A DNA stretch of 64,000 bases from a virus, in the IMG/VR virus record IMGVR_UViG_3300002143_000172, positions 1 through 64,000 of that record. The stretch is one strand, 5' to 3'. The position numbers and the translations under genes are program-made. This document shows, one piece after another, positions 28,864-42,730 of the stretch. Below the pieces are notes generated by a model. It ran no database searches. It saw nothing but the letters and a program-made list of their open reading frames with translations, and was not told where the DNA came from. How positions within the stretch are numbered: position 1 is the first letter of the stretch; each line of letters begins with the position of its first letter.

Positions 28864-29096
28864 ACAGGATGATCGTGCCAATTTGTTTAGTATTCTGGTC
28901 TGGCCAATTATAGCACCCAGACCCTATCAACATTCATGTTGACTATTACATGTTTTTCTGTATGTAAATCATACCCGGTGCTTTGCCGGTCTATCAGTTA
29001 TATTAGCGTCTATTGCTAGAAAGTGTTGCCACTTGCCTTACGGGCCGCCGTCTACTGCATTAAGCGTTAGGTTTAAATTGCTGTATTCATCCAAAA
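28864..29096 (-). ncRNA. CAGCAA-family structured RNA copy 1 (about 230 nt)
   Basis: GGAUGA/UCAUCC closing stem, CAGCAA, three consecutive GNRA hairpins plus further helices. Confidence 0.75.
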
Positions 29097-29099
29097 ATA

Positions 29100-29258
29100 A
29101 CAGGCTAGTTGTCTACTTTTGTTTTTTATCGAGGCAAATATCGAAAACCCTCTATCTAATCCTACTTCATTGCTAACCTTCAAAGCCAATTAAGGCTCCA
29201 GTTAGTAACATAAGATTAGCATTCCATGTAATTATGGATTGCTGAACCTAGCCTAAAA
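29100..29258 (-). ncRNA. CAGCAA-family structured RNA copy 2
   Basis: AGGCUAG/CUAGCCU stem, GUUCAGCAA, internal helices. Confidence 0.75.
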
Positions 29259-30656: not shown

Positions 30657-30679
30657 CTCGTTCTCCTTTCGTTAAAATG

Positions 30680-30740
30680 ACAGGTTGCTTATTTTTCAAT
30701 TACAAGTTGAATTTTAAAATTTGCTGAACGCAACCTAAAA
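30680..30740 (-). ncRNA. CAGCAA-family RNA copy 3 with anticodon-arm mimic (UGU)
   Basis: AGGUUGC/GCAACCU stem; UUCAA-CUUGUAA-UUGAA. Confidence 0.75.
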
Positions 30741-30765
30741 ACTTATTTTCTTAACTTAAACATTT

Positions 30766-30794
30766 ATTATAGACGAAATAGACATCGTTGTCAA
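30766..30794 (-). promoter_or_regulatory. sigma70-type promoter for copy 3, DUF2828, copy 2, copy 1
   Basis: TTGACA-17 nt-TATAAT. Confidence 0.85.
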
Positions 30795-30812
30795 CATCTA
30801 TTTCATCTATTT

Positions 30813-31424
30813 TTACATCGTAGGACCGTTACCGCTTCTAAAACCTACACTACCACCTTCTTCTTCGATGCGTTTGATAACATCCTCAAACAAGATAGGA
30901 GCAAAGTCTGGAAGTTGTTCCACGCAAACGCAGTGGTATCTTACATCAATCTCATCGCTGTACAAGATCTCTCCTGTCCTTGCGTCAACCCCCCTGGCCT
31001 TACGCACACGATTTGCGTGAGTATGACCGTGGATGTTAACCCCAAAGCGACCAAGACTATCTGAGTGCAACGGAATGTGACTCAAAATCATCCCATTCAT
31101 AACATGATAGGCCCTAAGCTCTCTAAAGTATTGACGGTATTCGTCATCTCTGAAGATGTCGTGGTTACCGCGGATCAATACCTTATCACCATTTAACCTA
31201 GCCAATGTTGATATAGCCTTTCGGTTAATAACAACATCGCCCAAATGGTAAATTTTATCAGTGGGCTTAACTCTTTCGTTCCAAGCCTTGATCATGGCTT
31301 CGTCCATATCCTCTGGACTATCCCACGGTCTCAATTTGGTAACACCATCTTTACGAGTGAATTTACACACGCCCAGGTGTCCAAAATGAGTATCGCTGAC
31401 TAAAAATACACTAGGCATATTCAA
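30813..31424 (-). CDS. calcineurin-like metallophosphoesterase
   Basis: SDTHFGH, HLGD, GNHD, HGHTH. Confidence 0.9.
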   Translation of the reverse strand: MNMPSVFLVSDTHFGHLGVCKFTRKDGVTKLRPWDSPEDMDEAMIKAWNERVKPTDKIYHLGDVVINRKAISTLARLNGDKVLIRGNHDIFRDDEYRQYFRELRAYHVMNGMILSHIPLHSDSLGRFGVNIHGHTHANRVRKARGVDARTGEILYSDEIDVRYHCVCVEQLPDFAPILFEDVIKRIEEEGGSVGFRSGNGPTM

Positions 31425-31648
31425 CTCCTTTCTTTTTTAACGCGGCCAATGCGGCTCGCTTTGTTCCAATCGTAAGCAACGCCATCTGGGCACTTGCCGT
31501 CCTTGATACTGTCAACTCCAAATATACCTACCATTTCAAAGTCTGCACCTTTAATGGTCACAAACTCGTTCATTGACTTAGCAACATTCATTGCCTCGGC
31601 AAGTGTAAGAACTTTGAAGATTTCTTCTTTTCCTATTACTTTATACAT
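31421..31648 (-). CDS. hypothetical protein
   Basis: 75 aa ORF after promoter. Confidence 0.7.
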   Translation of the reverse strand: MYKVIGKEEIFKVLTLAEAMNVAKSMNEFVTIKGADFEMVGIFGVDSIKDGKCPDGVAYDWNKASRIGRVKKERS

Positions 31649-31654
31649 GCCTTA

Positions 31655-31683
31655 ATTATAACATGATTTTACCACTTTGTCAA
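31655..31683 (-). promoter_or_regulatory. sigma70-type promoter
   Basis: TTGACA-17 nt-TATAAT. Confidence 0.85.
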
Positions 31684-32240
31684 TCATTATCTTCTAACTT
31701 TCTACGCTCGCGCCTTGCTTGGGCAAGCATAAAAACCTTTTCATTATCATTGGTCCAATCTACTGCGTGTTTGGGTACAATTAACCCAGAATCCAATGTC
31801 ACACCATTAATGGTGTGAGGCTCATTCTCATCATAAGTCCACCCTAGGTGCTTCATCATACGATGCTTGACACATAGGTTAGGACTGCGGAACACTTCTG
31901 TGTCATCAAAGCCCATCATAACGCCAACCTCGCATACTGCTCCACTACGGCACACACCTGCATGACAATGAACAACGACATTCATACGATTGTCTAATGC
32001 ATGTTGTAGCAAACGGACAAGCTCTGCGGCCTGTTCATTACTACATCGCATTGCTTCTTCCAAACACTCATCGTGTTCTTCAATATCTAAAAATTGGAAT
32101 TGATGGACTTCTTTGAATTGGTGCTTGGGAGTTGGAAAATCTCCGGGCGGATCACAAATTTGGATCAGCATGGAGTTAGGACCACAATCGTGGTGCCGAC
32201 CTTGCTTAATATCAGATAACGCTACATTTTCAATCCACAT
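31680..32240 (-). CDS. Cys-based (PTP/DSP-like) phosphatase
   Basis: HCHAGVCRS (CX5R); start MWIEN after AGGAG. Confidence 0.85.
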   Translation of the reverse strand: MWIENVALSDIKQGRHHDCGPNSMLIQICDPPGDFPTPKHQFKEVHQFQFLDIEEHDECLEEAMRCSNEQAAELVRLLQHALDNRMNVVVHCHAGVCRSGAVCEVGVMMGFDDTEVFRSPNLCVKHRMMKHLGWTYDENEPHTINGVTLDSGLIVPKHAVDWTNDNEKVFMLAQARRERRKLEDND

Positions 32241-32700
32241 ACCAAATCTCCTTAAATCCTTCTTCTTCAGTGGGCTCTTCCCAACTGGCAATCATACTGG
32301 CAACAACATGTTCCGGAACGATCTTTCCAGACTCCCATCGACTGGATAGTCGACGAACAAGTTCTTTATGTTCAGGTGTACGAAACACCACAGCAATATG
32401 TTCATAGTCTGGCAACATACGAAACTTCTTAGCCCGACTAGCAATCGTAGTGCTGGTTTGATCCCAAATAATATCATTGCCCATTTCTCGAATGGCTACA
32501 ACATTTGCGGCCATTAAATTAACTGCCTTGGGCATGTATTCTGTAAAAATTTCCGAATAGGTTTTCTTCAAGCGAGCGGCTTCTAATTCAACCCAATAGT
32601 CAGTCGATACGATATGACATCTCTTGGCCCATTCTTGATTGGCGATCCAGGTACTTTTGCCCGAACCAGGCACTCCGACCATCTGATAACATCTTAGCAT
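32230..32700 (-). CDS. AAA_33 / polynucleotide-kinase-like P-loop kinase
   Basis: GVPGSGKST, VSTD, WDQT. Confidence 0.85.
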   Translation of the reverse strand: MLRCYQMVGVPGSGKSTWIANQEWAKRCHIVSTDYWVELEAARLKKTYSEIFTEYMPKAVNLMAANVVAIREMGNDIIWDQTSTTIASRAKKFRMLPDYEHIAVVFRTPEHKELVRRLSSRWESGKIVPEHVVASMIASWEEPTEEEGFKEIWYVD

Positions 32701-32721
32701 ATAATACTTTCTAAAATAGGT

Positions 32722-32796
32722 TGGTCCCGCTAGGAGGAATCGAACCTCCATCTTAACCTTAGGAGTGTTTTATTCTATCCATTGAACTATAGCGAG
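32722..32796 (-). tRNA. tRNA-Arg(CCU), weak anticodon stem
   Basis: cloverleaf, loop CU-CCU-AA, CCA. Confidence 0.75.
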
Positions 32797-32809
32797 GGGT
32801 TAATAACAC

Positions 32810-32838
32810 ATTATAGCATGATAAATGATTTGTGTCAA
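32810..32838 (-). promoter_or_regulatory. sigma70-type promoter
   Basis: TTGACA-17 nt-TATAAT. Confidence 0.8.
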
Positions 32839-32845
32839 ATGAAAA

Positions 32846-32907
32846 ACAGGATCCGCTTTTTTCAAAGTTGAAGTTTGATTTTTTAATTTGCTGAAAGGAT
32901 CCTAAAA
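32846..32907 (-). ncRNA. CAGCAA-family RNA copy 4 with anticodon-arm mimic (UCA)
   Basis: AGGAUCC/GGAUCCU stem; UCAAA-CUUCAAC-UUUGA. Confidence 0.75.
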
Positions 32908-32908
32908 C

Positions 32909-32985
32909 TGGTTGCAGTGGCAGGATTCGAACCTGCGATTCCCGGCTTATGAGACCGGACGGATAGACCACTTCCATACACTGCG
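32909..32985 (-). tRNA. tRNA-fMet(CAU)
   Basis: CAU anticodon, C1:A72 mismatch. Confidence 0.85.
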
Positions 32986-32990
32986 ATAAT

Positions 32991-33020
32991 TGGTGGAGGA
33001 GACAGGGATCGAACCGATAT
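32991..33020 (-). pseudogene. 3' remnant of a tRNA-Ala
   Basis: CGGUUCGAUCCCUGUCUCCUCCACCA without 5' half. Confidence 0.7.
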
Positions 33021-33023
33021 CTC

Positions 33024-33536
33024 CTAAATGGTGGAGGTTAAGGGGATCGAACCCTTAACTCTGCCTTGCAAAGGCAGCGTGTTCCCATTAGCACTAAACC
33101 CCCATTTGTATTCAACTGCTTGCTCTATTAAAGGAGCAACTTCGTCTTTCCATTTGCTATGTACCATTTCGTGATGATTTGGACATAATGGTATTAAGTT
33201 CTGCGGATCGTTATTATCGTGATTCTCATCTATATGATGTATTGCTACAATCTTATCAAATCCGCAAATAACACATTCGTGTTTCCAATGCTGTAAAGCA
33301 ATAGTCTTATAATGCGTAGCATTATCATTCCACCACTCTTGTCTATTGTTAGCACAACTACGACTACAGAACTTTGCTCGTTCATATGTCTTAGTTTTTA
33401 TGCGTCCTTCAAATATAAACTCTGTACCACAGCGTTCACATTCTTTAGTATGTTTTGCAACAGGACCAAATCGTTTATCGTTCTTTTCCTGTTGTAGGAG
33501 TTTGTATTGTTCAGTGTTATATTTTCCGTTGTTCAT
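33024..33536 (-). CDS. HNH homing endonuclease; C-terminus runs through tRNA-Ala
   Basis: KFCSRSCAN, CVICG, HHID, NLIPLCPNHH. Confidence 0.9.
   Translation of the reverse strand: MNNGKYNTEQYKLLQQEKNDKRFGPVAKHTKECERCGTEFIFEGRIKTKTYERAKFCSRSCANNRQEWWNDNATHYKTIALQHWKHECVICGFDKIVAIHHIDENHDNNDPQNLIPLCPNHHEMVHSKWKDEVAPLIEQAVEYKWGFSANGNTLPLQGRVKGSIPLTSTI
33029..33103 (-). tRNA. tRNA-Ala(UGC)
   Basis: cloverleaf, G3:U70, CCA. Confidence 0.9.
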
Positions 33537-33567
33537 ACTTTATTTATCATAAAGTGCGAAATACGAA

Positions 33568-33596
33568 CGCTGTTCTATCAACTGAGCTACACCCCC
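33568..33596 (-). pseudogene. 5' remnant of a tRNA-Ala
   Basis: GGGGGUGUAGCUCAGUUGAUAGAACAGCG then HNH promoter. Confidence 0.7.
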
Positions 33597-33637
33597 ATTT
33601 ATTCTTTTCTGCTAACAATCCTACAAGGGAACAAACT

Positions 33638-33714
33638 TGGTCGGAGTACAAGGATTCGAACCTTGGACCTCCTGGTCCCAAACCAGGCGCACTACCAGGC
33701 TGTGCTACACTCCG
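33638..33714 (-). tRNA. tRNA-Pro(UGG)
   Basis: canonical cloverleaf. Confidence 0.95.
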
Positions 33715-33721
33715 AATATTC

Positions 33722-33796
33722 TGGTGGGTGATGAGAGGATCGAACTCCCGACAAACTGCGTGTAAGGCAGCGACTCTACCGCTGAGCTAATCACCC
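33722..33796 (-). tRNA. tRNA-Val(UAC)
   Basis: canonical cloverleaf. Confidence 0.95.
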
Positions 33797-33801
33797 AAAT
33801 A

Positions 33802-33875
33802 TGGAGCGGGATGGGAGAATCGAACTCCCAACTTCAGTTTGGAAAACTGAGGTAATACCATTTTACGAATCCCGC
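33802..33875 (-). tRNA. tRNA-Gly(UCC)
   Basis: canonical cloverleaf, U73. Confidence 0.95.
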
Positions 33876-34016
33876 ACTCTCTAATCAAATACATCCATGC
33901 CGTTTTCCTAGAGGGTGGCCGTTCCCAATACCTAGACTACATCTAAGTTAAATGTGTTTTAAAAAAGTTTATCACAGATATTTAGTTTATCAATTTAGTG
34001 GTATATAAATATCTTG

Positions 34017-34697
34017 ATGAATATCGATCACAATCCTTATCAATGCTACGCCAATCAAGAATTGAAATGGCTCCCAATGGATACGGAAAATTTGTATAAA
34101 CGAAATCTCAAAGTTAACTATTTTCTTCTTGAAAAATTTAATTGGCTAAATTCAAATTTTACTTATAAATTTAACAGCCAAGGATTTCGTTGCGATGAGT
34201 TTACTAACAGTCCTTCTATTGTTTTTTTAGGATGTAGTATAACAGTAGGCATTGGAATACCTGTAGAAACAACCTGGGCAAGTTTAGTATCTAATCAATT
34301 AAATCTTTCTTGTTATAACTTAGGTATAGGCGGCTCATCAAACAATACTGCATTTCGATTAGCACATATATGGTTAAAAAAAATTAAACCTAAAGTGGTT
34401 GTATTTTGTCAAACCTATCCAGAAAGATTAGAAGTGTTTAACGAAAATGGAATAATATCTAATATAGCATCGGATTGCGGTGAGTTTTATAATCACTGGT
34501 TGTCCAATGAAAACAACAGCGCATTAAACCAAATTAAAAACAGGTTAGCAATTCAACAGTTATGCAATTCTTTTGATATTAAATTTGTGCATACCAGTGT
34601 GCATAATTTTGAATTTATTGATCAAGCAAGAGACCTGGCACATCCAGGAATTACATCAAATCAAAAGTTTTCGAAGTTAGTGCTAGAACTGATATAG
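34017..34697 (+). CDS. SGNH-like hypothetical protein
   Basis: FNSQGFR, LGCSITVGIG, NLGIGGSSN, ARDLAHPG. Confidence 0.7.
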   Translation: MNIDHNPYQCYANQELKWLPMDTENLYKRNLKVNYFLLEKFNWLNSNFTYKFNSQGFRCDEFTNSPSIVFLGCSITVGIGIPVETTWASLVSNQLNLSCYNLGIGGSSNNTAFRLAHIWLKKIKPKVVVFCQTYPERLEVFNENGIISNIASDCGEFYNHWLSNENNSALNQIKNRLAIQQLCNSFDIKFVHTSVHNFEFIDQARDLAHPGITSNQKFSKLVLELI

Positions 34698-34705
34698 TTA
34701 TAAAA

Positions 34706-34910
34706 GTGTTACTGCCACTTCCACCACAGAAGCCCAATAACTGAGTAGTTACCCTGTCCATAACATTTATTCTTATGGGATGGCGTTAGACCACACCCTA
34801 GACAGTTCTCGGTATTCCCTAAAGAGGAACCGTAAGGTCAAGTTCTAGTGTACCCCCTGGTCTCTCGTTACAGGGACGCTCTTTTATTTACGGCAAAGAG
34901 TAAACCGGGT
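34706..34910 (-). ncRNA. unknown multi-helix RNA (about 205 nt)
   Basis: ORF-free interval with at least five predicted helices, directly 3' of tRNA-Thr. Confidence 0.55.
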
Positions 34911-34915
34911 TATTC

Positions 34916-34989
34916 TGGTGCCCCTTGACAGAATCGAACTGCCATCAACGGATTACAAAACCATTGTATTACCATTATACTAAAGGGGC
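34916..34989 (-). tRNA. tRNA-Thr(UGU)
   Basis: cloverleaf, CCA. Confidence 0.9.
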
Positions 34990-35017
34990 CTTAAGTTTTT
35001 TGTAACACTTCATTATT

Positions 35018-35257
35018 TCACTTATTTTTAGATCCTAATTTATATTCTAAATCTTTAGAAGCATCTAGTATTGTATCTTCGGTGCTCAATATATCTTGAT
35101 ACTCATTCTTACTTACACCTGTATTATCTTCTACCGGAGTATCTGGAATTAGTTTCTTCATATATGTTGGAACATGTTTCCCAAAGATACTTTCAAAATT
35201 ATTATCAAAAGTTTTCCCATCCACACTTTTTGGACGAGGCCTCGAACCTTTACTCAT
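35018..35257 (-). CDS. small phage protein
   Basis: MSKGSRPRP...FDNNFESIFGK. Confidence 0.7.
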   Translation of the reverse strand: MSKGSRPRPKSVDGKTFDNNFESIFGKHVPTYMKKLIPDTPVEDNTGVSKNEYQDILSTEDTILDASKDLEYKLGSKNK

Positions 35258-35481
35258 CTAATCTTCCTTAAATGATCTCTACCAATTTTACCTTCTTCAA
35301 TTTCTTTTAAGGCCAATACTGCGGCGGTACTTCCGTTGTTGTTTTCTACCAACGGCATTGCACCACGCTTCAATTCTCGAACACGGGTTGATGCAATTAA
35401 TACCAAGTCAAATCTACTGCCCCCAACATTCTTAACACATTTTTCAATGTCGTTCATTGTTCGTTCTAGTTTTTTTGTCAT
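35254..35481 (-). CDS. rpoZ: RNA polymerase omega subunit homologue
   Basis: SRFDLVLIASTRVREL and ALKEIEEGKI motifs. Confidence 0.85.
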   Translation of the reverse strand: MTKKLERTMNDIEKCVKNVGGSRFDLVLIASTRVRELKRGAMPLVENNNGSTAAVLALKEIEEGKIGRDHLRKIR

Positions 35482-35503
35482 AGTTGCCTTAGTTAAAAAA
35501 TTG

Positions 35504-35587
35504 TGGTGCCCCAGGCGAGACTCGAACTCGCAACCCTTTCGGGGACGGCTTCTAAGACCGCTGTGTAAACCATTCCACCACCGGGGC
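35504..35587 (-). tRNA. tRNA-Leu(UAG)
   Basis: class II cloverleaf. Confidence 0.95.
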
Positions 35588-35645
35588 ATAATAAAATACA
35601 TTGTAGCAGGATATTTATATCTTGTCAACCTGCTTAAAACAAAAT

Positions 35646-35722
35646 TGGTGGGCCAGATCGGATTCGAACCGATGATCAACGGCTTATGAGGCCGCTGCTT
35701 TAGGCCTCTAAGCTACTGGCCC
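35646..35722 (-). tRNA. tRNA-Ile2/Met(CAU)
   Basis: CAU anticodon, GGGCC acceptor typical of Ile2. Confidence 0.85.
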
Positions 35723-35745
35723 AATTTTAAATACTAAATATTGTT

Positions 35746-36321
35746 ATGAACTTTAACATCTCTGTAGATACACAGTATGGCATAATGCTTAGTGGCGGTA
35801 TTGATAGTGCTATATTGTTCTATCTGTTAATTAAAGAGGAACCAAAAATAAGACTCCAACCGTTTACTATTCCCAAAGTTGACGGCGCATACTTATATGC
35901 TGATCCGCTCATTGATTATTTTAATAATAAATTTAACTTAACAATTCCACACACGATTAAAGTAGGTGATCCGACTTTACATCACACAAAACAGGGTCAA
36001 AGTGGATATACTGATATTCGAAAGTTTTATAAAAATATACAGATCGTATTCTGTGCTCTTAACGCAGTTCCTTTAGAATTACAAGACGGTCGTCATCCTA
36101 TAAGGCTGATGCACGGACCTACTAACCTTAAATTGCCATTTGTTAATATGTTCAAGGATCAAATTCTTCAAATTATGTATGATGAAGGGCAAACTGATCT
36201 TATTGATCTCACCCATTCGTGTACAGAAAGAACTGTGGGACGATGTAATCATTGTTGGCAATGCGGTGAACGCAGTTGGGCATTTAATAAACTAAACAAA
36301 GTTGATACCGGAACAAAATAA
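35746..36321 (+). CDS. QueC-like PP-loop protein
   Basis: SGGIDS and SC...CNHCWQCGER. Confidence 0.75.
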   Translation: MNFNISVDTQYGIMLSGGIDSAILFYLLIKEEPKIRLQPFTIPKVDGAYLYADPLIDYFNNKFNLTIPHTIKVGDPTLHHTKQGQSGYTDIRKFYKNIQIVFCALNAVPLELQDGRHPIRLMHGPTNLKLPFVNMFKDQILQIMYDEGQTDLIDLTHSCTERTVGRCNHCWQCGERSWAFNKLNKVDTGTK

Positions 36322-36323
36322 CA

Positions 36324-36397
36324 TGGTGCCCGGAGCCGGACTCGAACTTGTGATAAAGGCTTATCAAGCCTCCGTTATACCGTTTAACTACAGAGCT
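36324..36397 (-). pseudogene. chimeric pseudo-tRNA (Ile(GAU) 5' part fused to Leu-type 3' end)
   Basis: T-stem ACAAG/CCGGC unpaired; 3' end nearly identical to adjacent tRNA-Leu(UAA). Confidence 0.7.
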
Positions 36398-36409
36398 GTC
36401 TTACTAACT

Positions 36410-36708
36410 TGGTGCTCCGAGCCGGAATCGAACCGGCACGCCATTACAGCGAGGGATTTTCTTACCACTATAGTTTTCACTACCTTTGCAGTTTGGTGGT
36501 CTGGACTATACCTTCATCATAGCATTACTGCCTTAGATGCTCGCCGTCTAGTCTCTACACGTTCAAAGTAATTTCTTACTAAGCTTCGCTCGGTATTAGC
36601 ATGTTAAAGCCTTCACCGAATTTGACGAGTTCTACTCCCGGCATTTCCACCGGGGCACTCAAATTTTACTCTCAAGTCCCTTGTGTCTACCTATTTCACC
36701 ATCAGAGC
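36410..36708 (-). tRNA. tRNA-Leu(UAA) split by group I intron
   Basis: exons 36674-36708 and 36410-36460 join to AGGGA-CU-UAA-AA-UCCCU. Confidence 0.92.
36461..36673 (-). mobile_element. group I intron (IC3-like, no ORF, 213 nt)
   Basis: P AAUUCGGUGAA, Q AAUACCGAGC, R GUAGAGACUAGACGG, S AAGGUAUAGUCC, terminal G, inserted after U34. Confidence 0.92.
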
Positions 36709-37293
36709 AATTAATCTTTTCATTCTTTCGTAGTTGCCGCCTTTTGCAGCTAGTCCTACTTCTAATAATGCTTGTCGTATGTTACTACATTTTGCATATG
36801 CTGTCAATAGCTCTTGGTCAGTTACTTTAACTTTCCCCGAGTTGATATTTCTACCTCTCCATGTTGGAGTTAATGCATGACAGTTACAACATAATAGTTT
36901 AAGATTTTCCCTTGTATTATGTTTGTTATCACCGTCGACATGCTCTAATTCTAACGGTATAGGACTGGACTGCCACTCGGTCAATCCACACCCTTCACAT
37001 TGGTAACCTCGCTCTTGTATAAGAGCCGATTTGTGATTACCAATACCATCGTACTCAAATTTTGTATTGGAATAATTACCTTTATTCCAATTCATTTTAG
37101 TTTTGGTGTCCGCTGGCAAATTTGCATACCTGATTTTTGCAGGCAAACGATTACCTAACTCGTATACTGCTTTAGTTCTTTCTGAGTTAATTGCTTTAAG
37201 TACACTGCATCCTGCGGGTCTGGCGCAACAGCAATTTTTACCATTTTTTAAAACAAACTTAGATGCAGTGTTGCATCCGTAATCACATAACAT
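36691..37293 (-). CDS. HNH homing endonuclease; stop codon inside tRNA-Leu 5' exon
   Basis: CEGCG, LELEHVDG, NLKLLCCNCHA. Confidence 0.9.
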   Translation of the reverse strand: MLCDYGCNTASKFVLKNGKNCCCARPAGCSVLKAINSERTKAVYELGNRLPAKIRYANLPADTKTKMNWNKGNYSNTKFEYDGIGNHKSALIQERGYQCEGCGLTEWQSSPIPLELEHVDGDNKHNTRENLKLLCCNCHALTPTWRGRNINSGKVKVTDQELLTAYAKCSNIRQALLEVGLAAKGGNYERMKRLIALMVK

Positions 37294-37370
37294 AACATAC
37301 TCCTGTTATGTGTATTTAGTAGGTAGGCACAGAATGCTTAACTTAAACTACCAATTACTCTATAAAAACT

Positions 37371-37438
37371 TGGTACACCGTGCGGAATGCGTACCCGCCG
37401 TGAAAGGGTGATGTCCTAGGCCTCTAGACGAACGGGAC
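37371..37438 (-). pseudogene. tRNA-Glu(UUC) pseudogene, T-arm deleted
   Basis: GUCCCGUUCGUCUAGAGGCCUAGGAC 5' half, no UUCGA loop. Confidence 0.75.
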
Positions 37439-37517
37439 AAAAATGTTACTTTTAATTTTTAAAGAGCGTGTTAATTTCTTAACTTATGCATTATTATAGC
37501 ATACTACTGCAGGTGTG

Positions 37518-38195
37518 TCAAGCAGTTTTAACGCTTTGGGAAGGTAATATAAAGTTTCCCGCCTGTGCTTTTTCGATAACTTGCGAAAAATTCATCGATA
37601 AACATTTCAACCTTAGGAACACCCGCTGTTTATCATTGTTCCTTACACCGTGTATGGTATGACCGTTAAACATGCTTGGGTGATCTAGACTGTAATTATA
37701 ACTATAAATTAGATCTCTTTTTGGTATTACTGGATAACTTGTTGCCCGCTGCCAAACAGACCCCGGTGGCATCCTGTAAAAATCAATTGGACTTGCATCA
37801 CTATCGGGTAAGATCGGGAACATGATCCCACAATACATATGAAAGTCTATGTGAGGTACAAAATTATAACCTGGACCATAGATTAAGATATCTACATCGG
37901 CTCCCTGCAACGGTTGGTCAAAGTTGAATTGTTCCACTAATTTTTTTATCGGATCAAAATCTTTTACATGTTTACCCAATGTAAAATAGGTATCGATCGA
38001 ATCAAATAGTCCAGCTGAATCTTCCTTAAACCGTTTATTGTGCGTCATGTTGTTTGATGCGTGTTTATTGGAAAACTTATTCATTAGTTTGCCAAAACTG
38101 ACTTGGTATTGTTTTACACTTTCATACCAATCTTTTAACTCTTCTCGATCGTATGTTATTTCGTCAAACACTACATGATGATCGAATACTTGCAT
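37518..38195 (-). CDS. 2OG-Fe(II) oxygenase-like protein
   Basis: PHID, HGVRN...R. Confidence 0.7.
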   Translation of the reverse strand: MQVFDHHVVFDEITYDREELKDWYESVKQYQVSFGKLMNKFSNKHASNNMTHNKRFKEDSAGLFDSIDTYFTLGKHVKDFDPIKKLVEQFNFDQPLQGADVDILIYGPGYNFVPHIDFHMYCGIMFPILPDSDASPIDFYRMPPGSVWQRATSYPVIPKRDLIYSYNYSLDHPSMFNGHTIHGVRNNDKQRVFLRLKCLSMNFSQVIEKAQAGNFILPSQSVKTA

Positions 38196-38217
38196 GGAAT
38201 TATTTAGTAACCTAACT

Positions 38218-38291
38218 TGGTGCTCAAGAATAGAATCGAACTATTGATTGCTCCTTACCATGGAGCCGTTATTCCATTTAACTACAAGAGC
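38218..38291 (-). tRNA. tRNA-Thr(GGU)
   Basis: cloverleaf with A32 and two U-U acceptor mismatches. Confidence 0.8.
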
Positions 38292-38298
38292 AAAAATA

Positions 38299-38390
38299 TG
38301 GTGGAGAGTGAGAGATTCGAACTCTCGGACCCACTTGCGTGGATCGACAGGTTAGCAACCTGCTGCCTTAGACCACTCGGCCAACTCTCC
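38299..38390 (-). tRNA. tRNA-Ser(GCU)
   Basis: class II cloverleaf, A73. Confidence 0.9.
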
Positions 38391-38400
38391 TAAATCTATT

Positions 38401-38497
38401 CGGTACGACCGGTAGGGTTCGAACCTACAAGGGCTATGTCTAAGACGGTGCCCCATCCTGCTCAACGCAGAGGTCTGCCAATTCCACTCACGGTCGC
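38401..38497 (-). ncRNA. tRNA-like RNA without a normal anticodon loop
   Basis: acceptor, D and T arms intact; 5-nt loop, very long variable arm, ends ACCG. Confidence 0.7.
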
Positions 38498-38541
38498 AAG
38501 TATATTATATACTTATCCGTGGTACTTGTCAACTAAAATAT

Positions 38542-38616
38542 TGGTCCGCCCACCAGGAATCGAACCTGGAATCACACTTTAGAAGAATGTTGTTATATCC
38601 ATTTAACTATGGGCAG
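38542..38616 (-). tRNA. tRNA-Arg(UCU)
   Basis: cloverleaf. Confidence 0.9.
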
Positions 38617-38711
38617 TGAGTCTCTAGTATAACATACTATTTTGTTTATGTCAATTCTGCTCATATAAATAGCTTTATGAATGTTATTTTTTGGAACGGC
38701 GGAATTAAAAT

Positions 38712-38785
38712 TGGCAGGGGCACTAGGGATCGAACCTAGACTAACAGAGTCAAAGTCTGTTGTGCTACCATTACACAATGCCCCA
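38712..38785 (-). tRNA. tRNA-Gln(UUG)
   Basis: cloverleaf. Confidence 0.9.
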
Positions 38786-38795
38786 ACAAAAAGGT

Positions 38796-38945
38796 TTTCA
38801 AGAGCCCAACTATCCTCCTGGGAGGACTCATTGGATTGTCTCGACAAGGCAAGTTTATACAACCGTCATCGCCGTCTGCGGTGTCATACAGCCAACCAAA
38901 ACTGTACTAGGCTTGCGGGACTCGAACCTTGCGTCTATCTTGAAA
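38796..38945 (-). ncRNA. unknown 150-nt structured RNA with T-loop
   Basis: UUUCAAGA/UCUUGAAA closing stem, GG-UUCGAGU-CC, several hairpins. Confidence 0.6.
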
Positions 38946-38947
38946 TT

Positions 38948-39022
38948 TGGTAGTAATGGAAAGAGTCGAACTTTCACAGCGCACCGTATGAAGGTGTTGC
39001 ACTACCATTATGCTACATTACC
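38948..39022 (-). tRNA. tRNA-Met(CAU)
   Basis: cloverleaf, paired 1:72. Confidence 0.85.
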
Positions 39023-39094
39023 ATATGTAAACACACTCAGAGGAGGCGTTCTCCGGCGCCGGAGTACCAAGCTGATCGTAAATGTGTTTGCATA

Positions 39095-39168
39095 TGGTAG
39101 GACCACCCGGACTCGAACCGGGATAGATCGGTTAAAAGCCGACTATTCTACCTTTGAATTATGATCCC
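39095..39168 (-). tRNA. tRNA-Lys(UUU)
   Basis: cloverleaf. Confidence 0.9.
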
Positions 39169-39172
39169 GTAT

Positions 39173-39247
39173 TGGTCCATGCTCTGAGAATCGAACTCAG
39201 TTCCTCCGGTTAAGAGCCGGTTACTTCGCCACTAAAGTTTAGCATGG
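39173..39247 (-). tRNA. tRNA-Lys(CUU)
   Basis: cloverleaf, atypical A8. Confidence 0.85.
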
Positions 39248-39328
39248 GTTGTGTATTAAATTGATTTAATGTGCCAACCCTAGACCAATACGGGATCTAG
39301 AGCGACACTATCGTTTACCTCGTTTCAT
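39242..39328 (-). promoter_or_regulatory. mini-ORF MKRGKR* (39308-39328) plus switch hairpin antisense to tRNA-Lys junction
   Basis: AAGGAG SD; 15-nt perfect inverted repeat 39283-39297 vs 39163-39177. Confidence 0.65.
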
Positions 39329-39329
39329 G

Positions 39330-39458
39330 TCAATCTCCTTTTTTGATATTACGATTTTGTGCTTGGCGTTCTGATTTCCAGAACACTCGTTTCCAATCTT
39401 TCAAATGCTTCCACCATTGTGGAGGCGCTGTCAAGTTACCCTTTTTGACATTTGCCAT
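39330..39458 (-). CDS. 42 aa basic Trp-rich peptide (not in ORF track)
   Basis: MANVKKGNLTAPPQWWKHLKDWKRVFWKSERQ...*, AAGGAA SD. Confidence 0.7.
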   Translation of the reverse strand: MANVKKGNLTAPPQWWKHLKDWKRVFWKSERQAQNRNIKKGD

Positions 39459-39485
39459 ACTGGTTCCTTTTTTAATTTAAAACTA

Positions 39486-40130
39486 TTATTTGCTGTGCAG
39501 TAAATTTACAAACTCTAACAATAGAGCATGATGTCTGCGATTATGCCAATGCTCCGGCATCCATGTATAACTGTCATACCAAAATTTTTCACTTTCTAAA
39601 TGACAGCCCATTAAACCTAAATTTCCCTGTATTATTGCCATAGGGTCTCCGTTGGCATAGGTAGCAACGGTAGTAAACTTTGTTTGATCTCCAATGAAAC
39701 AACATCCGTCATTGTAGAACATCTTGTCCGACTGTCCATTCCAGGTAACTGATATTGCTTTAGTATGTGGTCTATGAGTATCTGCGGTAGGTTGCTTGTA
39801 ATACTGTACAGCGTCTACATCCTCAAGCAGATCAAAGTAATAATGATTGGCCCAATATGCGCCCATACATATTCCTAGATACTTGCCCCCACTATTAACA
39901 AACTCTTTAATAAGATCGGCGTTATTTTTTAGCAGATAATCGTAGCTATCGGAATTTCCAAAACCACCGGGAAATGCAACTATATCAACATCATTGAAAA
40001 AATCTTCTTCTAGCTCGTGCTTGGTAAAGATTTTAAAATCATAATGGCTTTTAAGTGCTTGCATGATACCATTGCCCGACTGTACAGAACACATCGGTTG
40101 ATGTATGAACAGTGCAATCTTAGGTTTCAT
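39486..40130 (-). CDS. BPL_N / class I glutamine amidotransferase-like protein
   Basis: FPGG, GGKYLGICMGAY, HLE. Confidence 0.8.
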   Translation of the reverse strand: MKPKIALFIHQPMCSVQSGNGIMQALKSHYDFKIFTKHELEEDFFNDVDIVAFPGGFGNSDSYDYLLKNNADLIKEFVNSGGKYLGICMGAYWANHYYFDLLEDVDAVQYYKQPTADTHRPHTKAISVTWNGQSDKMFYNDGCCFIGDQTKFTTVATYANGDPMAIIQGNLGLMGCHLESEKFWYDSYTWMPEHWHNRRHHALLLEFVNLLHSK

Positions 40131-40143
40131 AACTTTATTTATA

Positions 40144-40219
40144 TGGCACCCCCGGAGAGAATCGAACTCCCATTCCTGCGTTCGTAGCACAGTGTATGAA
40201 TCCATTATACGACAGGGGT
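40144..40219 (-). tRNA. tRNA-Arg(ACG)
   Basis: cloverleaf. Confidence 0.9.
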
Positions 40220-40231
40220 ATAAATAATTTT

Positions 40232-41437
40232 ATGAAAAACTGGGAAAATGTTAAAAAACTGCACATAGAAATAAGTTCTCAATGTAACGCTGTATGTCCT
40301 ATGTGTACTCGGTATCCAACCGCTAGTTACTTTGAGCACCCGCATATACAGAAAGACTGGATGTGGACTGTAGACACAGTAAAACAACGACTACCTAAAG
40401 AAGATTTAATAGGTATAACTTCATACCTTATCAATGGCACCTTTGGAGATTTTATTATGAACTCCGAAGCAATAGAAATAATACAGTATCTAAATGAATG
40501 TTCACCCGATGCTAGTCTTTATATCAATACCAACGGTTCTGCTAGAAACGCAAGTTGGTGGAAAGAACTTGCAAAGATTCCTAATGTAGTAGTAAATTTT
40601 GCAATCGACGGATTAGAAGATACTCATTCACTTTACAGGAGAAACACTAGCTGGTCTAAGATTATTGACAATGCTAAAACATTTATAAATTCGGGCGGTC
40701 ATGCAGAATGGACAATGATTATATTTGAGCATAATAAGCATCAAGTTGATGCTTGCTTTAATCTCAGCACAACTATTGGATTTAAATCATTTACCAGCCG
40801 AAATAGCGACCGAATCAATACTGATGTTCTTGATAAAAATGGCCTTAGTAAATACGGAATAAAATCTGCCGATCCTACCATTACCAGTTATCGATCCTAC
40901 CATCAATTACAGTGGAAAGAAACTATATTAAAGAAAGGTCAGTTTTACGCAAAGCAAACATACCAAACCGGCGCATTGCCTAGTATAGACTCATGCTCGA
41001 GTATTTCGGAAAGTTCGGTATACATAGGATCAAATTGGTCCGTAATGCCGTGTTGTTTCTTAGGAAACATTACGATGGGTAGGCAGACTGATCATAGGTG
41101 GGCAAATTTCTTAGATGCACTCACTAACGCAGGATTTTCCTTAACCGACTTTGATGCAACAAGTACCAAAACAGTTCGTCAAGTATTTGAGCAAGGGTTT
41201 GACTGGGTATACAATCGCATATTAACCGACAATGCGTTAGTTGCTTGTTCAACAAATTGTCATCCTGTGGACAGTGCATTTCAGAGAAGTATGGCAAGTC
41301 GTCAACATGAAACCCTTAAAAATATGGTGCCGCCCCCAGGGATCGAACCTGGTTCCTCGGTGCTTCAAACCGGTGCTATGACCACATCAGCTAAAGCGGC
41401 ATTGGTACCAGCGGAGGGTATCGAACCCTCTCACTGA
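40232..41437 (+). CDS. radical SAM / SPASM protein
   Basis: CNAVCPMC, NTNGS, VMPCC; 3' end overlaps tRNA-Phe antisense. Confidence 0.9.
   Translation: MKNWENVKKLHIEISSQCNAVCPMCTRYPTASYFEHPHIQKDWMWTVDTVKQRLPKEDLIGITSYLINGTFGDFIMNSEAIEIIQYLNECSPDASLYINTNGSARNASWWKELAKIPNVVVNFAIDGLEDTHSLYRRNTSWSKIIDNAKTFINSGGHAEWTMIIFEHNKHQVDACFNLSTTIGFKSFTSRNSDRINTDVLDKNGLSKYGIKSADPTITSYRSYHQLQWKETILKKGQFYAKQTYQTGALPSIDSCSSISESSVYIGSNWSVMPCCFLGNITMGRQTDHRWANFLDALTNAGFSLTDFDATSTKTVRQVFEQGFDWVYNRILTDNALVACSTNCHPVDSAFQRSMASRQHETLKNMVPPPGIEPGSSVLQTGAMTTSAKAALVPAEGIEPSH
41325..41400 (-). tRNA. tRNA-Phe(GAA)
   Basis: cloverleaf. Confidence 0.9.
41403..41430 (-). pseudogene. 3' tRNA remnant (T-arm plus GGUACCA)
   Basis: GAGGG-UUCGAUA-CCCUC then CGCUGGUACCA. 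Confidence 0.65.
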
Positions 41438-41447
41438 TGTTATCTAT

Positions 41448-41524
41448 TGGTACCTCCGGCGGGAGTCGAACCCCCAACCACCTGCTTCTAAGGCAAGCCG
41501 CACTACCAATTAGCGTACGAAGGC
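41448..41524 (-). tRNA. tRNA with Leu(UAG) anticodon, short variable loop
   Basis: 77-nt class I cloverleaf. Confidence 0.85.
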
Positions 41525-41529
41525 ATATA

Positions 41530-41606
41530 TGGTACCCCGTGTCTGATTCGAACAGACATCCAACTCCTTTTGAGAGAATTCGCACTACCAATTAGCGTAA
41601 CGGGGC
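41530..41606 (-). tRNA. tRNA with Leu(CAA) anticodon, short variable loop
   Basis: 77-nt class I cloverleaf, same D-arm as neighbour. Confidence 0.85.
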
Positions 41607-41616
41607 ATAAAAACTT

Positions 41617-41692
41617 TGGGGTGCTCTATGAGGATCGAACTCATACTACCGGGGTCACAGACCAGTGTGCAGGCCACTACACTAAGAACACC
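41617..41692 (-). tRNA. tRNA-His(GUG)
   Basis: G-1:C73. Confidence 0.9.
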
Positions 41693-41698
41693 ATTGTT

Positions 41699-41775
41699 TG
41701 GAGCACAGGGTGGGACTCGAACCCACGACTTTACGGATTTGCAATCCGCTACATTGGCCGCTCTGTCACCTGTGC
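41699..41775 (-). tRNA. tRNA-Cys(GCA)
   Basis: cloverleaf, U73. Confidence 0.9.
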
Positions 41776-41782
41776 ATATAAT

Positions 41783-41856
41783 TGGAGCGGGTAGCGAGAA
41801 TCGAACTCGCGATTAAACTTCGGCAAAGTTTTAGGTTACCATTACATCATACCCGC
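41783..41856 (-). tRNA. tRNA-Gly(GCC)
   Basis: cloverleaf, U73. Confidence 0.9.
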
Positions 41857-41864
41857 ATTGTTTG

Positions 41865-42464
41865 TTAGCCAAATAATATTTTTTTGGCATCTTTAAAATA
41901 TGTATTACTTTGAATATTTTCCATTATTCTTAGAGTTAATACAACTCTAAGTGAGTTTGATCGACTATTGTCAAAATCATGAAAAATATCTGTGTTAAAC
42001 AATATACATTCATTTGATTTTGCGACCATACTTTTTATCGGTGTATGTTTTGTTTTATCGAAACCAGCACATTCTCTTGAAGTTTTTTTCTGCAAATTGT
42101 CTATTAGATACTCTTTTAAATCTTCATCACTATACCAATTAGTAACACACGCTTCGTCTAAAATTTGAACGGTATAGTTGATACTAAATCGATCAGACAT
42201 TCCGTCCTTGTGTGCCCTGTAATATCCACCGGGCTTTGTCATAAACAAACTAACACGATGTGGCCTTAATGGCATTTGCTTTGCCATTGGTAGTAATGAA
42301 AGAAGATGATTCGCTTGATCTTTTGGAAAAGGGTAATGAATAAAAGTCTCATTATCCTCGATTGAAGGCATATTCTTTTTACAATAGTCAACGATCTTAT
42401 CTAGCCCGTCGTGGGTAAATCTAATATAGTACGGACTGCAATCTTCGATTATTGTATAGGTCAT
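41865..42464 (-). CDS. 2OG-Fe(II) oxygenase-like protein
   Basis: AHKDG, FNTDIFHDFDN...R. Confidence 0.7.
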   Translation of the reverse strand: MTYTIIEDCSPYYIRFTHDGLDKIVDYCKKNMPSIEDNETFIHYPFPKDQANHLLSLLPMAKQMPLRPHRVSLFMTKPGGYYRAHKDGMSDRFSINYTVQILDEACVTNWYSDEDLKEYLIDNLQKKTSRECAGFDKTKHTPIKSMVAKSNECILFNTDIFHDFDNSRSNSLRVVLTLRIMENIQSNTYFKDAKKILFG

Positions 42465-42487
42465 ATAACTATTTACAATCTAAAATT

Positions 42488-42579
42488 TGGCGGAAGACGG
42501 AGGAGTCGAACCCCATCCCATTTCTGAGAACCCAGTTTTCAAGGCTGGTCGGCGCACCAACGCACCTGCATCATCTTCC
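42488..42579 (-). tRNA. tRNA-Ser(UGA), 8/4 fold
   Basis: 8-bp acceptor, 4-bp T-stem, G73, long V-arm. Confidence 0.8.
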
Positions 42580-42585
42580 ATAACT

Positions 42586-42659
42586 TGGTCCTCTCGTATG
42601 GAATCGAACCATCATCTACCGGTTATCAGCCGATTGCTCTACCATTGAGCTACAAGAGG
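42586..42659 (-). tRNA. tRNA-Ile(GAU)
   Basis: cloverleaf. Confidence 0.9.
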
Positions 42660-42666
42660 AAATAAA

Positions 42667-42730
42667 ACAGGATGCATTTTTGGCTTTTTTTCAAGAAAAG
42701 ATTTTTAAATTTGCTGGAAGCATCCTAAAA
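42667..42730 (-). ncRNA. CAGCAA-family RNA copy 5 with anticodon-arm mimic (UGA)
   Basis: AGGAUGC/GCAUCCU stem; CUUUU-CUUGAAA-AAAAG. Confidence 0.75.

What the first reader, a model, noticed from the sequence alone, without database searches (positions are those of the whole stretch)
30695..42700. Short CAGCAA RNAs each display a tRNA anticodon-arm mimic with a different anticodon
Seen: the three roughly 60-nt copies each contain one 5-bp stem with a 7-nt loop obeying anticodon-loop rules (C32, U33, A37). They are CU-UGU-AA (30700-30706, Thr), CU-UCA-AC (32867-32873, complementary to the UGA stop) and CU-UGA-AA (42689-42695, Ser), flanked by A/U-rich linkers. The stems differ in sequence. Inference: decoy substrates or sensors for anticodon nucleases or modification enzymes, or A-site probes delivered by the TROVE-like protein. 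Copy 3 lies in the 5' UTR of that gene and could make its expression cleavage-responsive.
Basis: partly seen in the sequence, partly recalled or inferred. Interest (0 to 1): 0.85.

Follow-up and report, generated by a model that had tools for sequence, protein, structure and literature searches.

The report
Phage small RNAs displaying anticodon arms
Three ~58-base RNAs in this large phage's tRNA array join a conserved "handle", probably held by a Ro60-shaped phage protein, to a small hairpin copied from a tRNA anticodon arm, each with a different triplet; this looks like an undescribed relative of the Ro60/Y-RNA particle whose job is still unknown.

Summary
On the minus strand, at exactly the stated loop coordinates, three 56-59-nt elements each carry a 5-bp stem and a 7-nt loop reading C-U-NNN-A-(A/C). 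The triplets are UGU, UCA and UGA.

They are the short members of a five-copy family in this 159-kb virus record. All five share a covarying 7-8-bp closing stem, a single-stranded CAGCAA and a 3' CCUGU (the "handle"). The family clusters around a DUF2828/DUF7788 gene whose predicted fold matches Ro60/TROVE and nothing else.

Across 167 distinct short relatives from uncultured phages, 65 have the anticodon-loop hairpin, against about 1 in shuffles. Stems are exactly 5 bp in 64 of 65 and they covary. Copies within one phage almost always carry different triplets. Longer relatives place the same hairpin inside a cloverleaf with a T arm, or inside a permuted whole-tRNA mimic resembling YrlA. So the hairpin derives from a tRNA anticodon arm.

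About 60% of short relatives carry other cargo, and the window hairpins are thermodynamically marginal. The decoy, sensor and ribosomal A-site functions remain untested.

I read these as Y-RNA-like partners of a Ro60-like protein: a new variant of a known kind. This scan has already found the same protein/handle system on other DNA. I found no paper or Rfam family describing it.

The parts
42668..42726 (-). Short handle RNA A (59 nt). It fills the gap between tRNA-Asp (42733-42807) and tRNA-Ile (42586-42659). Anticodon-arm-like hairpin at 42684-42700, loop CUUGAAA at 42689-42695 (triplet UGA).
32847..32903 (-). Short handle RNA B (57 nt). It starts 5 nt after the CCA end of tRNA-Met (32909-32985). 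Hairpin at 32862-32878, loop CUUCAAC at 32867-32873 (triplet UCA). It is followed at once by a 12/12 promoter.
30681..30736 (-). Short handle RNA C (56 nt), in the leader of the Ro60-like gene and ending 24 nt before its ATG. Hairpin at 30695-30711, loop CUUGUAA at 30700-30706 (triplet UGU).
30766..30794 (-). Sigma-70-type promoter (TTGACA-17-TATAAT, 12/12) in front of RNA C and the Ro60-like gene.
29265..30656 (-). Ro60-like protein gene (463 aa; Pfam DUF2828 + DUF7788). Helical ring plus vWA domain with an invariant MIDAS motif (D270, S272, S274, T342, D374).
29101..29254 (-). Long handle RNA 4 (154 nt) directly after the gene's stop codon. Same AGG-stem / CAGCAA / CCUGU handle, with a complex cargo.
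28865..29093 (-). Long handle RNA 5 (about 229 nt), with a variant handle (UGG...CCUGU).
28839..28862 (-). Intrinsic terminator closing the unit: promoter, RNA C, Ro60-like gene, RNA 4, RNA 5.
32810..32838 (-). 12/12 promoter immediately downstream of RNA B. It starts the tRNA-Arg(CCU), kinase and phosphatase unit.
30813..32751 (-). Neighbouring genes: AAA_33 P-loop kinase (32230-32751, weak match to the Pnkp kinase domain), dual-specificity-type phosphatase (31680-32291), a 75-aa ORF, and a calcineurin-like metallophosphoesterase (30813-31424). This is an RNA-end-healing-like set.

Best explanation
The three elements are small RNAs built on one plan. The constant part is a handle: a 7-8-bp closing stem with invariant AGG/CCU at its base, then two variable nucleotides, a single-stranded CAGCAA, an A-rich return strand and a 3' CCUGU. 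The variable part is a cargo.

In these three copies the cargo is a minimal tRNA anticodon arm: a 5-bp stem and a 7-nt loop C-U-NNN-A-A/C. Each copy has a different triplet.

Two copies are transcribed inside the tRNA polycistron, so their ends would be set by tRNA processing (inferred). The third is made from its own consensus promoter as the leader of the gene for a Ro60-fold protein (DUF2828/DUF7788).

I infer that this protein binds the handle, as Ro60 binds the conserved stem of Y RNAs. The RNA-protein particle would then present tRNA parts to proteins that recognise anticodon loops. Candidates are host anticodon nucleases (acting as a decoy or trap) or tRNA repair and modification enzymes (acting as an adaptor). 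The leader copy may also let the protein regulate its own mRNA.

Shown here: the anatomy, the covariation, the tRNA-arm origin of the hairpin, the gene linkage and the protein fold. Inferred: binding, processing and any function.
For: Handle: on 107 distinct sequences, 98.2% of stem cells pair. Six of eight pairs show changes on both sides (132 cells against 28.5 in shuffles), and slid controls pair at 49% or less. The two inner pairs were unconstrained by my search pattern yet are fully paired, with four pair types.

Family in the window: five copies in the 159-kb record, all at 28.8-42.7 kb on the minus strand (shuffles 0.28).

Linkage: the element lies about 25 nt upstream of the DUF2828 gene in all close IMG/VR relatives, and beside the gene in relatives of 51-56% identity. 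Of 120 loci fetched by RNA pattern alone, 40 hold the gene, 39 of them on the same strand and mostly within 320 nt. Five of five large records that lacked the gene in the fetched piece have it elsewhere.

Protein: AF2 model with pLDDT 89 and pTM 0.87. All 13 Foldseek PDB hits with E<1e-3 are Ro60/TROVE structures (Xenopus, human, Deinococcus Rsr, Thermus phage phiLo), TM 0.5-0.65 over the full length. The MIDAS residues are invariant.

Anticodon arm: 65 of 167 short members fit (shuffles 1.15). In 64 of 65 the stems are exactly 5 bp. There are at least 17 distinct covarying stems. Position 34 is never A. The loops equal real phage tRNA loops. The triplet differs among copies of one phage in 21 of 23 loci.

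Intermediates: the 87-99-nt forms fold as closing stem + hairpin + the same CUUGUAA arm + a T arm with a UUCGAAU loop. The 100-135-nt forms are a permuted tRNA mimic that matches the tRNA-like part of Rfam YrlA at 33-39 bits.

Transcription unit: promoter at 30794-30766 and terminator at 28862-28839.
Against: The three hairpins are very weak: 0 to -0.8 kcal/mol, with pair probability of 2-8%. The minimum-energy folds prefer other pairings.

About 60% of short relatives carry other cargo, with loops of 3-20 nt.

Many counted sequences are related, so the shuffle statistics overstate independence.

The triplets are biased to U/A-rich words, as the A/U-rich context would favour.

The kinase and phosphatase neighbours accompany the gene in only 31-38 of 80 loci.

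A stoichiometric decoy is a poor answer to a catalytic nuclease unless it binds tightly.
Confidence: 0.7

Rival explanations
1. These are decaying tRNA gene remnants. The elements are leftovers of tRNA genes in a fast-changing array. The anticodon-loop pattern is inherited debris, and the RNAs have no function of their own.
For: They sit among 31 tRNA genes interspersed with HNH endonuclease ORFs and a group I intron. Their closing stem is 7 bp, like an acceptor stem. Longer relatives look like partial tRNAs.
Against: Debris would not keep a non-tRNA motif (CAGCAA, CCUGU) invariant with a covarying stem across phages whose partner protein is only 25-55% identical. It would not stay next to one gene family. 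It would not maintain 5-bp pairing by compensatory change.
Confidence: 0.05
2. These are cis-acting signals rather than trans-acting RNAs. They would act as punctuation for processing or termination in the tRNA polycistron, and as an autoregulatory operator in the leader of the Ro60-like mRNA. The inner hairpin would be incidental.
For: Copies A and B abut tRNA ends. CCUGU is followed by U-rich tracts. Copy B ends right at the next promoter. Copy C lies between a promoter and the ribosome-binding site.
Against: The terminator scan called none at the copies. Long-cargo members and tandem arrays (L075; Lumos) do not fit punctuation. The enrichment and triplet diversity of the hairpin would be unexplained. 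Autoregulation at copy C is compatible with the main explanation rather than a replacement for it.
Confidence: 0.12
3. The RNAs act through loop-loop base pairing. The exposed 7-nt loops would pair with complementary anticodon loops or with each other, with the Ro60-like protein as a chaperone, rather than mimicking substrates for proteins.
For: The loops of copies A and B contain UUGAA and UUCAA, which are complementary over 5 nt. It is established knowledge that complementary anticodons form unusually stable complexes.
Against: This is a single coincidence in A/U-rich loops. The commonest triplets, UUU and UGU, have no complementary natural anticodon. No conserved pairing partners were found.
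Confidence: 0.05
4. The hairpin is a statistical by-product of A/U-rich linkers. Only the handle is functional, and the middle is a spacer.
For: The predicted stability is weak, the minimum-energy folds differ, and cargo is heterogeneous across relatives.
Against: Composition-preserving controls give 1.15 against 65 observed, and 9.3 against 58 observed. Stems are exactly 5 bp. Position 34 lacks A in an A-rich context. The same arm sits in the cloverleaf forms.
Confidence: 0.08

Closest known systems
Bacterial and phage Y RNAs (YrlA/YrlB, Yrn1) with Rsr/Ro60 (Chen et al. 2014, PMC4201824; Rfam RF02553)
   Same: Small RNAs are encoded beside, and on the same strand as, a Ro60-fold protein. The design is modular: a terminal stem presumed to bind the protein, plus a module that mimics tRNA. 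The long relatives match the T-arm / closed acceptor / D-arm part of the YrlA model. Ro60 loci also lie with RNA-repair genes (rsr-yrlBA-rtcBA).
   Different: The protein belongs to Pfam DUF2828/DUF7788, not TROVE, and has no sequence-level hit to solved Ro60 structures. The handle motif is CAGCAA / CCUGU, not GNCGAA. No member reaches the YrlA gathering score (33-39 bits against 69). The three RNAs here carry only an anticodon arm, the part that YrlA lacks, with a different triplet in each copy.
Class I RNAs of dictyostelid social amoebae (Kjellin et al. 2021, PMC7919456; Rfam RF01414)
   Same: About 60 nt long, with a short covarying stem joining the 5' and 3' ends. An (A)G begins the stem. 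A conserved motif with a CAGCAA core lies next to the 5' strand, followed by an A/U-rich variable middle and a 3' CUGU. RF01414 hits the three copies end to end, and its only hits in 16 kb and 56 kb of phage DNA were handle elements.
   Different: Scores are 24-28 bits, below the gathering score of 41.5. There is no DUSE promoter. The host is a phage, not an amoeba. The known Class I partner is an RRM protein (Rnp1A). I could not test whether dictyostelids encode a DUF2828 protein.
tRNA anticodon stem-loops, and armless mitochondrial tRNAs
   Same: A 7-bp terminal stem, a 5-bp inner stem and a 7-nt loop with C32, U33 and A37. The loop words are identical to real anticodon loops of the same phage.
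   Different: There is no D or T arm and no NCCA end. Neither ARAGORN nor the Rfam tRNA model detects them. A 16-18-nt CAGCAA linker stands where the D arm would be.
Phage answers to anticodon nucleases: spare or resistant phage tRNAs and T4 Pnkp/Rnl1 repair (reviewed in Iyer et al. 2021, PMC7824862)
   Same: The context matches: a large phage with a near-complete tRNA set, kinase and phosphatase genes next door, and a TROVE-type protein noted in some jumbo phages as an RNA-repair platform with a tRNA-like partner.
   Different: No anticodon-arm-only RNA has been described in that role. The link to nucleases is an inference.

Membership tests
Y RNA / YrlA (RF02553) | Encoded close to, and on the same strand as, a Ro60 (TROVE) gene | tested here: met
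   All five copies are on the gene's strand, and three lie within its transcription unit. 39 of 40 loci have the same strand. However, the gene is Ro60-like by fold only.
Y RNA / YrlA (RF02553) | Terminal stem carrying the Ro60-binding motif (GNCGAA in bacteria, GGUCCGA in animals) | tested here: not met
   The handle has CAGCAA and CCUGU instead. The YrlA stem positions are deleted in the model alignments.
Y RNA / YrlA (RF02553) | tRNA-like domain with T arm, D arm and closed acceptor stem | tested here: not met
   Absent from the three short copies. Present in the 100-135-nt relatives.
Y RNA / YrlA (RF02553) | Score at or above Rfam's gathering threshold (69 bits) | tested here: not met
   No hit on the window's copies. 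Relatives score 33.2 and 39.3 bits.
Y RNA / YrlA (RF02553) | Physically bound by the Ro60 protein | not testable with these tools
   Needs immunoprecipitation or gel-shift assays.
Dictyostelid Class I RNA (RF01414) | About 60 nt with a short covarying stem joining the 5' and 3' ends | tested here: met
   56-59 nt, with strong stem covariation.
Dictyostelid Class I RNA (RF01414) | 11-nt motif (CCUUACAGCAA) next to the 5' stem strand, and a 3' CUGU | tested here: inconclusive
   CAGCAA and CUGU are invariant. Some relatives have UUACAGCAA. The first residues of the motif differ.
Dictyostelid Class I RNA (RF01414) | Rfam gathering score of 41.5 bits | tested here: not met
   24.4-28.1 bits.
Dictyostelid Class I RNA (RF01414) | DUSE promoter about 60 nt upstream; found in dictyostelid genomes | tested here: not met
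   Bacterial-type promoter or tRNA co-transcription, in a phage record.
tRNA (RF00005) | Cloverleaf with D and T arms and an acceptor end | tested here: not met
   No ARAGORN or Rfam tRNA hit on the three copies.
tRNA anticodon arm (mimicry, not membership) | 5-bp stem and 7-nt loop with Y32, U33 and R37 | tested here: met
   Met by all three copies and by 65 of 167 short relatives.
Ro60 / TROVE protein | Helical-repeat ring plus a vWA domain with a MIDAS site | tested here: met
   The best Foldseek hits are all Ro60/TROVE chains, TM 0.5-0.65. DxSxS, T and D are invariant in 56 sequences.
Ro60 / TROVE protein | Sequence match to Pfam TROVE or to solved Ro60 chains | tested here: not met
   Pfam gives only DUF2828 + DUF7788. 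phmmer against PDB sequences finds nothing at E<=1.

The most novel reading that the evidence does not exclude
Each phage carries a small library of anticodon arms, with one triplet per RNA, mounted on a common handle. A Ro60-like ring uses them to trap or sense host enzymes that attack particular tRNA anticodon loops. The same handle system extends to giant viruses of eukaryotes and is the long-sought relative of the orphan Class I RNAs of social amoebae, which would then be partners of a Ro60-like (DUF2828-type) protein.
Probability: 0.15. Interest if true: 0.92.

Novelty: new variant of a known kind. Interest (0 to 1): 0.77.

Why it matters
Ro60/Y-RNA particles are known from animals and some bacteria. 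What their tRNA-like parts do is still unclear.

Here a second, much larger Ro60-shaped protein family comes with its own RNA partners. The family appears in 711 cultured phage records and in at least one giant-virus contig. In the phage databases it is mostly annotated as hypothetical. Its RNA partners are built from interchangeable tRNA parts, including bare anticodon arms with different triplets.

This gives a direct handle on an open question: why Ro60 systems mimic tRNA. Anticodon-specific partners can be looked for in tractable phage-host pairs (Mycobacterium phage Lumos, Citrobacter phage Ci1, Felix O1-type phages).

If the arms engage host anticodon nucleases, this would be a new kind of RNA-based counter-defence.

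The resemblance to dictyostelid Class I RNAs, so far reported as unique to those amoebae, offers a testable lead to their function.

Tried and rejected
- Megablast of the region against cultured phages found no match.
- Rfam at gathering thresholds found only tRNAs and a group I intron, so the family is not in Rfam 15.
I revised this after the larger sample showed a strong anticodon-loop subclass.
- Counting anticodon-like loops in the 100-135-nt class was confounded by T loops (UUCGAAU fits the pattern), so I do not use that number.
- Membership in YrlA and in Class I RNA was rejected on gathering scores.
- The taxonomic range of the protein, and in particular whether dictyostelids encode it, could not be settled. 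The atlas feature search returned only viral clusters. Papers mentioning DUF2828 are plant or tardigrade studies. Avesson et al. 2011, on Class I-binding proteins, is not in the library.
- The supplementary phage list of Chen et al. 2014 is not held. I therefore cannot say whether their 22 phages include DUF2828-type genes.
- No complex prediction was run, because the tool does not take RNA.

Full report
**What is there**

The window is the first 64 kb of a 159-kb IMG/VR virus record, estimated 44% complete. Between 28.7 and 43.9 kb the minus strand carries 31 tRNA genes, HNH endonuclease ORFs and a group I intron.

The three reported elements lie on that strand at 42668-42726, 32847-32903 and 30681-30736. 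Read as RNA, each has these parts in order:
- a U-rich lead and AGG plus four variable bases;
- two bases, CAGCAA and an A/U-rich linker;
- a 5-bp stem with a 7-nt loop;
- an A-rich linker, the complement of the four variable bases, and CCUGU.

Two more RNAs with the same ends but long middles lie at 29101-29254 and 28865-29093. A regex for the handle finds these five and one unlikely extra hit in the whole record, against 0.28 per shuffled genome.

**Context in the window**

Copy A fills the 73 nt between tRNA-Asp and tRNA-Ile. Copy B begins 5 nt after the encoded CCA of tRNA-Met and ends at a 12/12 consensus promoter.

Copy C follows another 12/12 promoter (30794-30766) and ends 24 nt before the ATG of a 463-aa ORF. 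After that ORF come the two long RNAs and an intrinsic terminator (28862-28839). The unit therefore reads: promoter, RNA C, protein gene, RNA 4, RNA 5, terminator.

Upstream lie a P-loop kinase (AAA_33, weak match to the Pnkp kinase domain), a dual-specificity-type phosphatase and a metallophosphoesterase.

**The protein**

Pfam assigns DUF2828 + DUF7788. No solved structure matches by sequence. An AlphaFold2 model built on 56 diverse homologues is confident (pLDDT 89, pTM 0.87).

All 13 of its Foldseek matches with E<1e-3 are Ro60/TROVE proteins: Xenopus and human Ro60, Deinococcus Rsr, and Thermus phage phiLo Ro60. They cover the whole length at TM 0.5-0.65. Lower-ranked matches are isolated vWA domains. 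The MIDAS residues DxSxS, T and D are invariant.

The family is very large. There are 6330 cluster representatives at E<=0.001 and 711 cultured phage records. In those records it is mostly "hypothetical protein", but it is "Ro-like RNA binding protein" in mycobacteriophages.

**The RNA family and its link to the gene**

I built a covariance model from the three copies with only the closing stem specified. It finds an element about 25 nt upstream of the gene in every close IMG/VR relative, and one to three copies next to the gene in relatives of 51-56% identity.

Of these loci:
- 40 contain a DUF2828-type ORF;
- 39 of the 40 have it on the same strand, usually within 320 nt;
- five of five large records without the gene in the fetched piece have it elsewhere.

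On 107 distinct sequences the closing stem is 98.2% paired. Six of eight pairs change on both sides, far above both the shuffled and the slid controls. The two innermost pairs, which my pattern left free, show four pair types and no mismatches.

Cultured phages carry the same arrangement:
- Mycobacterium phage Lumos has three handle RNAs directly after its Ro-like gene.
- Felix O1-type phage VpaE1 has four among the tRNAs that follow the gene.
- Citrobacter phage Ci1 has them between tRNAs.

**Is the inner hairpin an anticodon-arm mimic?**

I expected not, because the positional orthologues of copy C in close relatives have loops of 7-10 nt. The larger sample changed that view.

*Enrichment.* Among 167 distinct short elements (45-70 nt), the best hairpin has a 7-nt loop in 67 (shuffles: 10.7). 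Sixty-five contain a stem of at least 5 bp closing a YU-NNN-R-N loop (shuffles: mean 1.15, maximum 4), and 64 of those stems are exactly 5 bp.

*Pairing.* Conditioning only on the loop word CUNNNA(A/C), 58 of 105 occurrences have five flanking pairs. Swapping the 3' flanks among elements gives 9.3. There are 17 distinct stems, with all four Watson-Crick pair types at the second and third pairs counted from the loop.

*Loop content.* Loop positions 32, 33 and 37 were fixed by the search word, and position 38 is almost always A. Position 34 is U, G or C but never A. Position 36 is U or A. Identical stems occur with different triplets. The loop words (for example CUUUUAA, CUUCUAA, CUGAUAA, CUGUUAA) are the same as the anticodon loops of the phage's own tRNAs. 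In 21 of 23 loci with two or more such elements, the triplets differ.

*Intermediates.* The most telling evidence comes from intermediate forms. The 87-99-nt members, including the one directly upstream of the gene in the distant group (L021 9905-9991), fold as closing stem + hairpin + an arm with the same CUUGUAA loop as copy C + a T arm with a UUCGAAU loop. The 100-135-nt members run arm, T arm, closed acceptor stem, D arm. They match the tRNA-like part of Rfam YrlA at 33-39 bits. The short RNAs therefore keep only the anticodon arm of a tRNA-like cargo.

*Limits.* About 60% of short relatives carry other cargo. For example, one group has a conserved 6-bp stem with a hypervariable 12-17-nt loop, and another has UUGG-containing loops. 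The sequences are phylogenetically related, so the controls overstate independence. The window's three hairpins are nearly all A-U, worth 0 to -0.8 kcal/mol, with predicted pairing probability of 2-8%. They would need the protein, magnesium or base modifications to be stably formed.

**Mechanism**

The best-supported reading is a Ro60/Y-RNA-like particle. The protein holds the constant handle and the RNA presents a tRNA part. Binding itself is inferred from linkage and from the analogy with Ro60.

What the anticodon arms engage is open. Three observations make an encounter with anticodon-loop-directed enzymes the most natural idea:
- the phage's full tRNA set;
- the neighbouring kinase and phosphatase genes (present near the gene in 31-38 of 80 loci);
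- the published link between Ro60 loci and tRNA damage (PMC7790460; PMC7824862).

These enzymes could be host anticodon nucleases or repair and modification enzymes. I give this about 0.3. Autoregulation through copy C in the mRNA leader is plausible and compatible with the main reading.

**Comparison with known systems**

The closest known system is Rsr/Ro60 with YrlA-type Y RNAs (PMC4201824). It shares the logic and the tRNA mimicry. It differs in protein family by sequence, in handle motif, and in lacking an anticodon-arm-only cargo. No element reaches the YrlA gathering score.

The handle also matches all the conserved features of dictyostelid Class I RNAs (PMC7919456): length, terminal stem beginning AG, CAGCAA next to the 5' strand, and 3' CUGU. 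The Rfam Class I model hits only these elements in the phage DNA I searched, but at 24-28 bits against a gathering score of 41.5.

A giant-virus contig provides a link to eukaryotes. It carries three NCLDV capsid genes, VLTF3 and a DUF2828 gene, next to a tandem array of handle RNAs. This shows that the system reaches viruses of eukaryotes. I could not test whether the amoebae encode the protein.

**Novelty**

I found no Rfam family and no paper describing these RNAs. Earlier agents of this scan reported the same protein/handle system on other genomes, so this is a repeat sighting within the scan. I class it as a new variant of a known kind. The anticodon-arm-only cargo with variable triplets is the new element examined here.

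Noticed in passing
L075 12106-14014 (IMG/VR GVMAG-M-3300021962-60): A genuine giant-virus (NCLDV) contig: three NCLDV major capsid paralogues, VLTF3 and a photolyase. It encodes a 510-aa DUF2828/DUF7788 protein next to a tandem array of at least four 73-nt RNAs with the same AGG-stem / CAGCAA / CCUGU handle, on the opposite strand.
   Followed up: partly
window 32867-32873 and 42689-42695; 30695-30711: The loops of copies B and A contain UUCAA and UUGAA, which are complementary over 5 nt. The same two words form the two stem strands of copy C. This could be chance, shared descent or loop-loop pairing.
   Followed up: no
window 30703 compared with L001 2364-2426: In a relative whose protein is 98% identical, the 63-nt leader RNA differs from the window's at a single base, the middle of the triplet (UGU here, UUU there).
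   Followed up: partly
window 42492-42579, 43890-43975, 36327-36396, 38404-38497 (minus strand): Sub-threshold tRNA or tRNA-Sec-like Rfam hits (35, 26, 27 and 22 bits) that ARAGORN did not call. They may be long-arm tRNAs (the record lacks tRNA-Tyr and tRNA-Ser(UGA)) or further tRNA-like RNAs.
   Followed up: no
window 28807-32838 (minus strand): Three perfect 12/12 and one 11/12 sigma-70 consensus promoters lie within 4.1 kb on one strand. They divide the tRNA / RNA / repair-gene region into short units.
   Followed up: partly
window 35746-36683: A group I intron (36480-36683, minus strand, 50.2 bits) lies near a plus-strand ORF that matches only the C-terminal part of QueC. A radical-SAM ORF (40196-41437) and a GATase-like ORF (39486-40205) lie nearby. 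Together these suggest a queuosine-type modification set inside the tRNA array.
   Followed up: no
family-wide (loci L001-L155): In the anticodon-arm subclass, position 34 is never A and position 36 is only U or A, always followed by A37. The displayed triplets therefore correspond to tRNAs that read ANN and UNN codons, the classes with hypermodified A37. This may be A/U bias or may be meaningful.
   Followed up: partly
L021, L022, L029, L033, L034 (for example L021 12600-12663): A subclass of short handle RNAs has a conserved 6-bp stem (CGCUAA/UUAGCG) closing a loop of 12-17 nt. The loop differs in almost every copy, which looks like a hypervariable display loop.
   Followed up: no
window 28253-28708 (minus strand): A dCMP/cytidine deaminase-family ORF follows tRNA-Arg(UCG) just downstream of the RNA/protein unit. 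It co-occurs near the Ro60-like gene in 12 of 80 loci.
   Followed up: no
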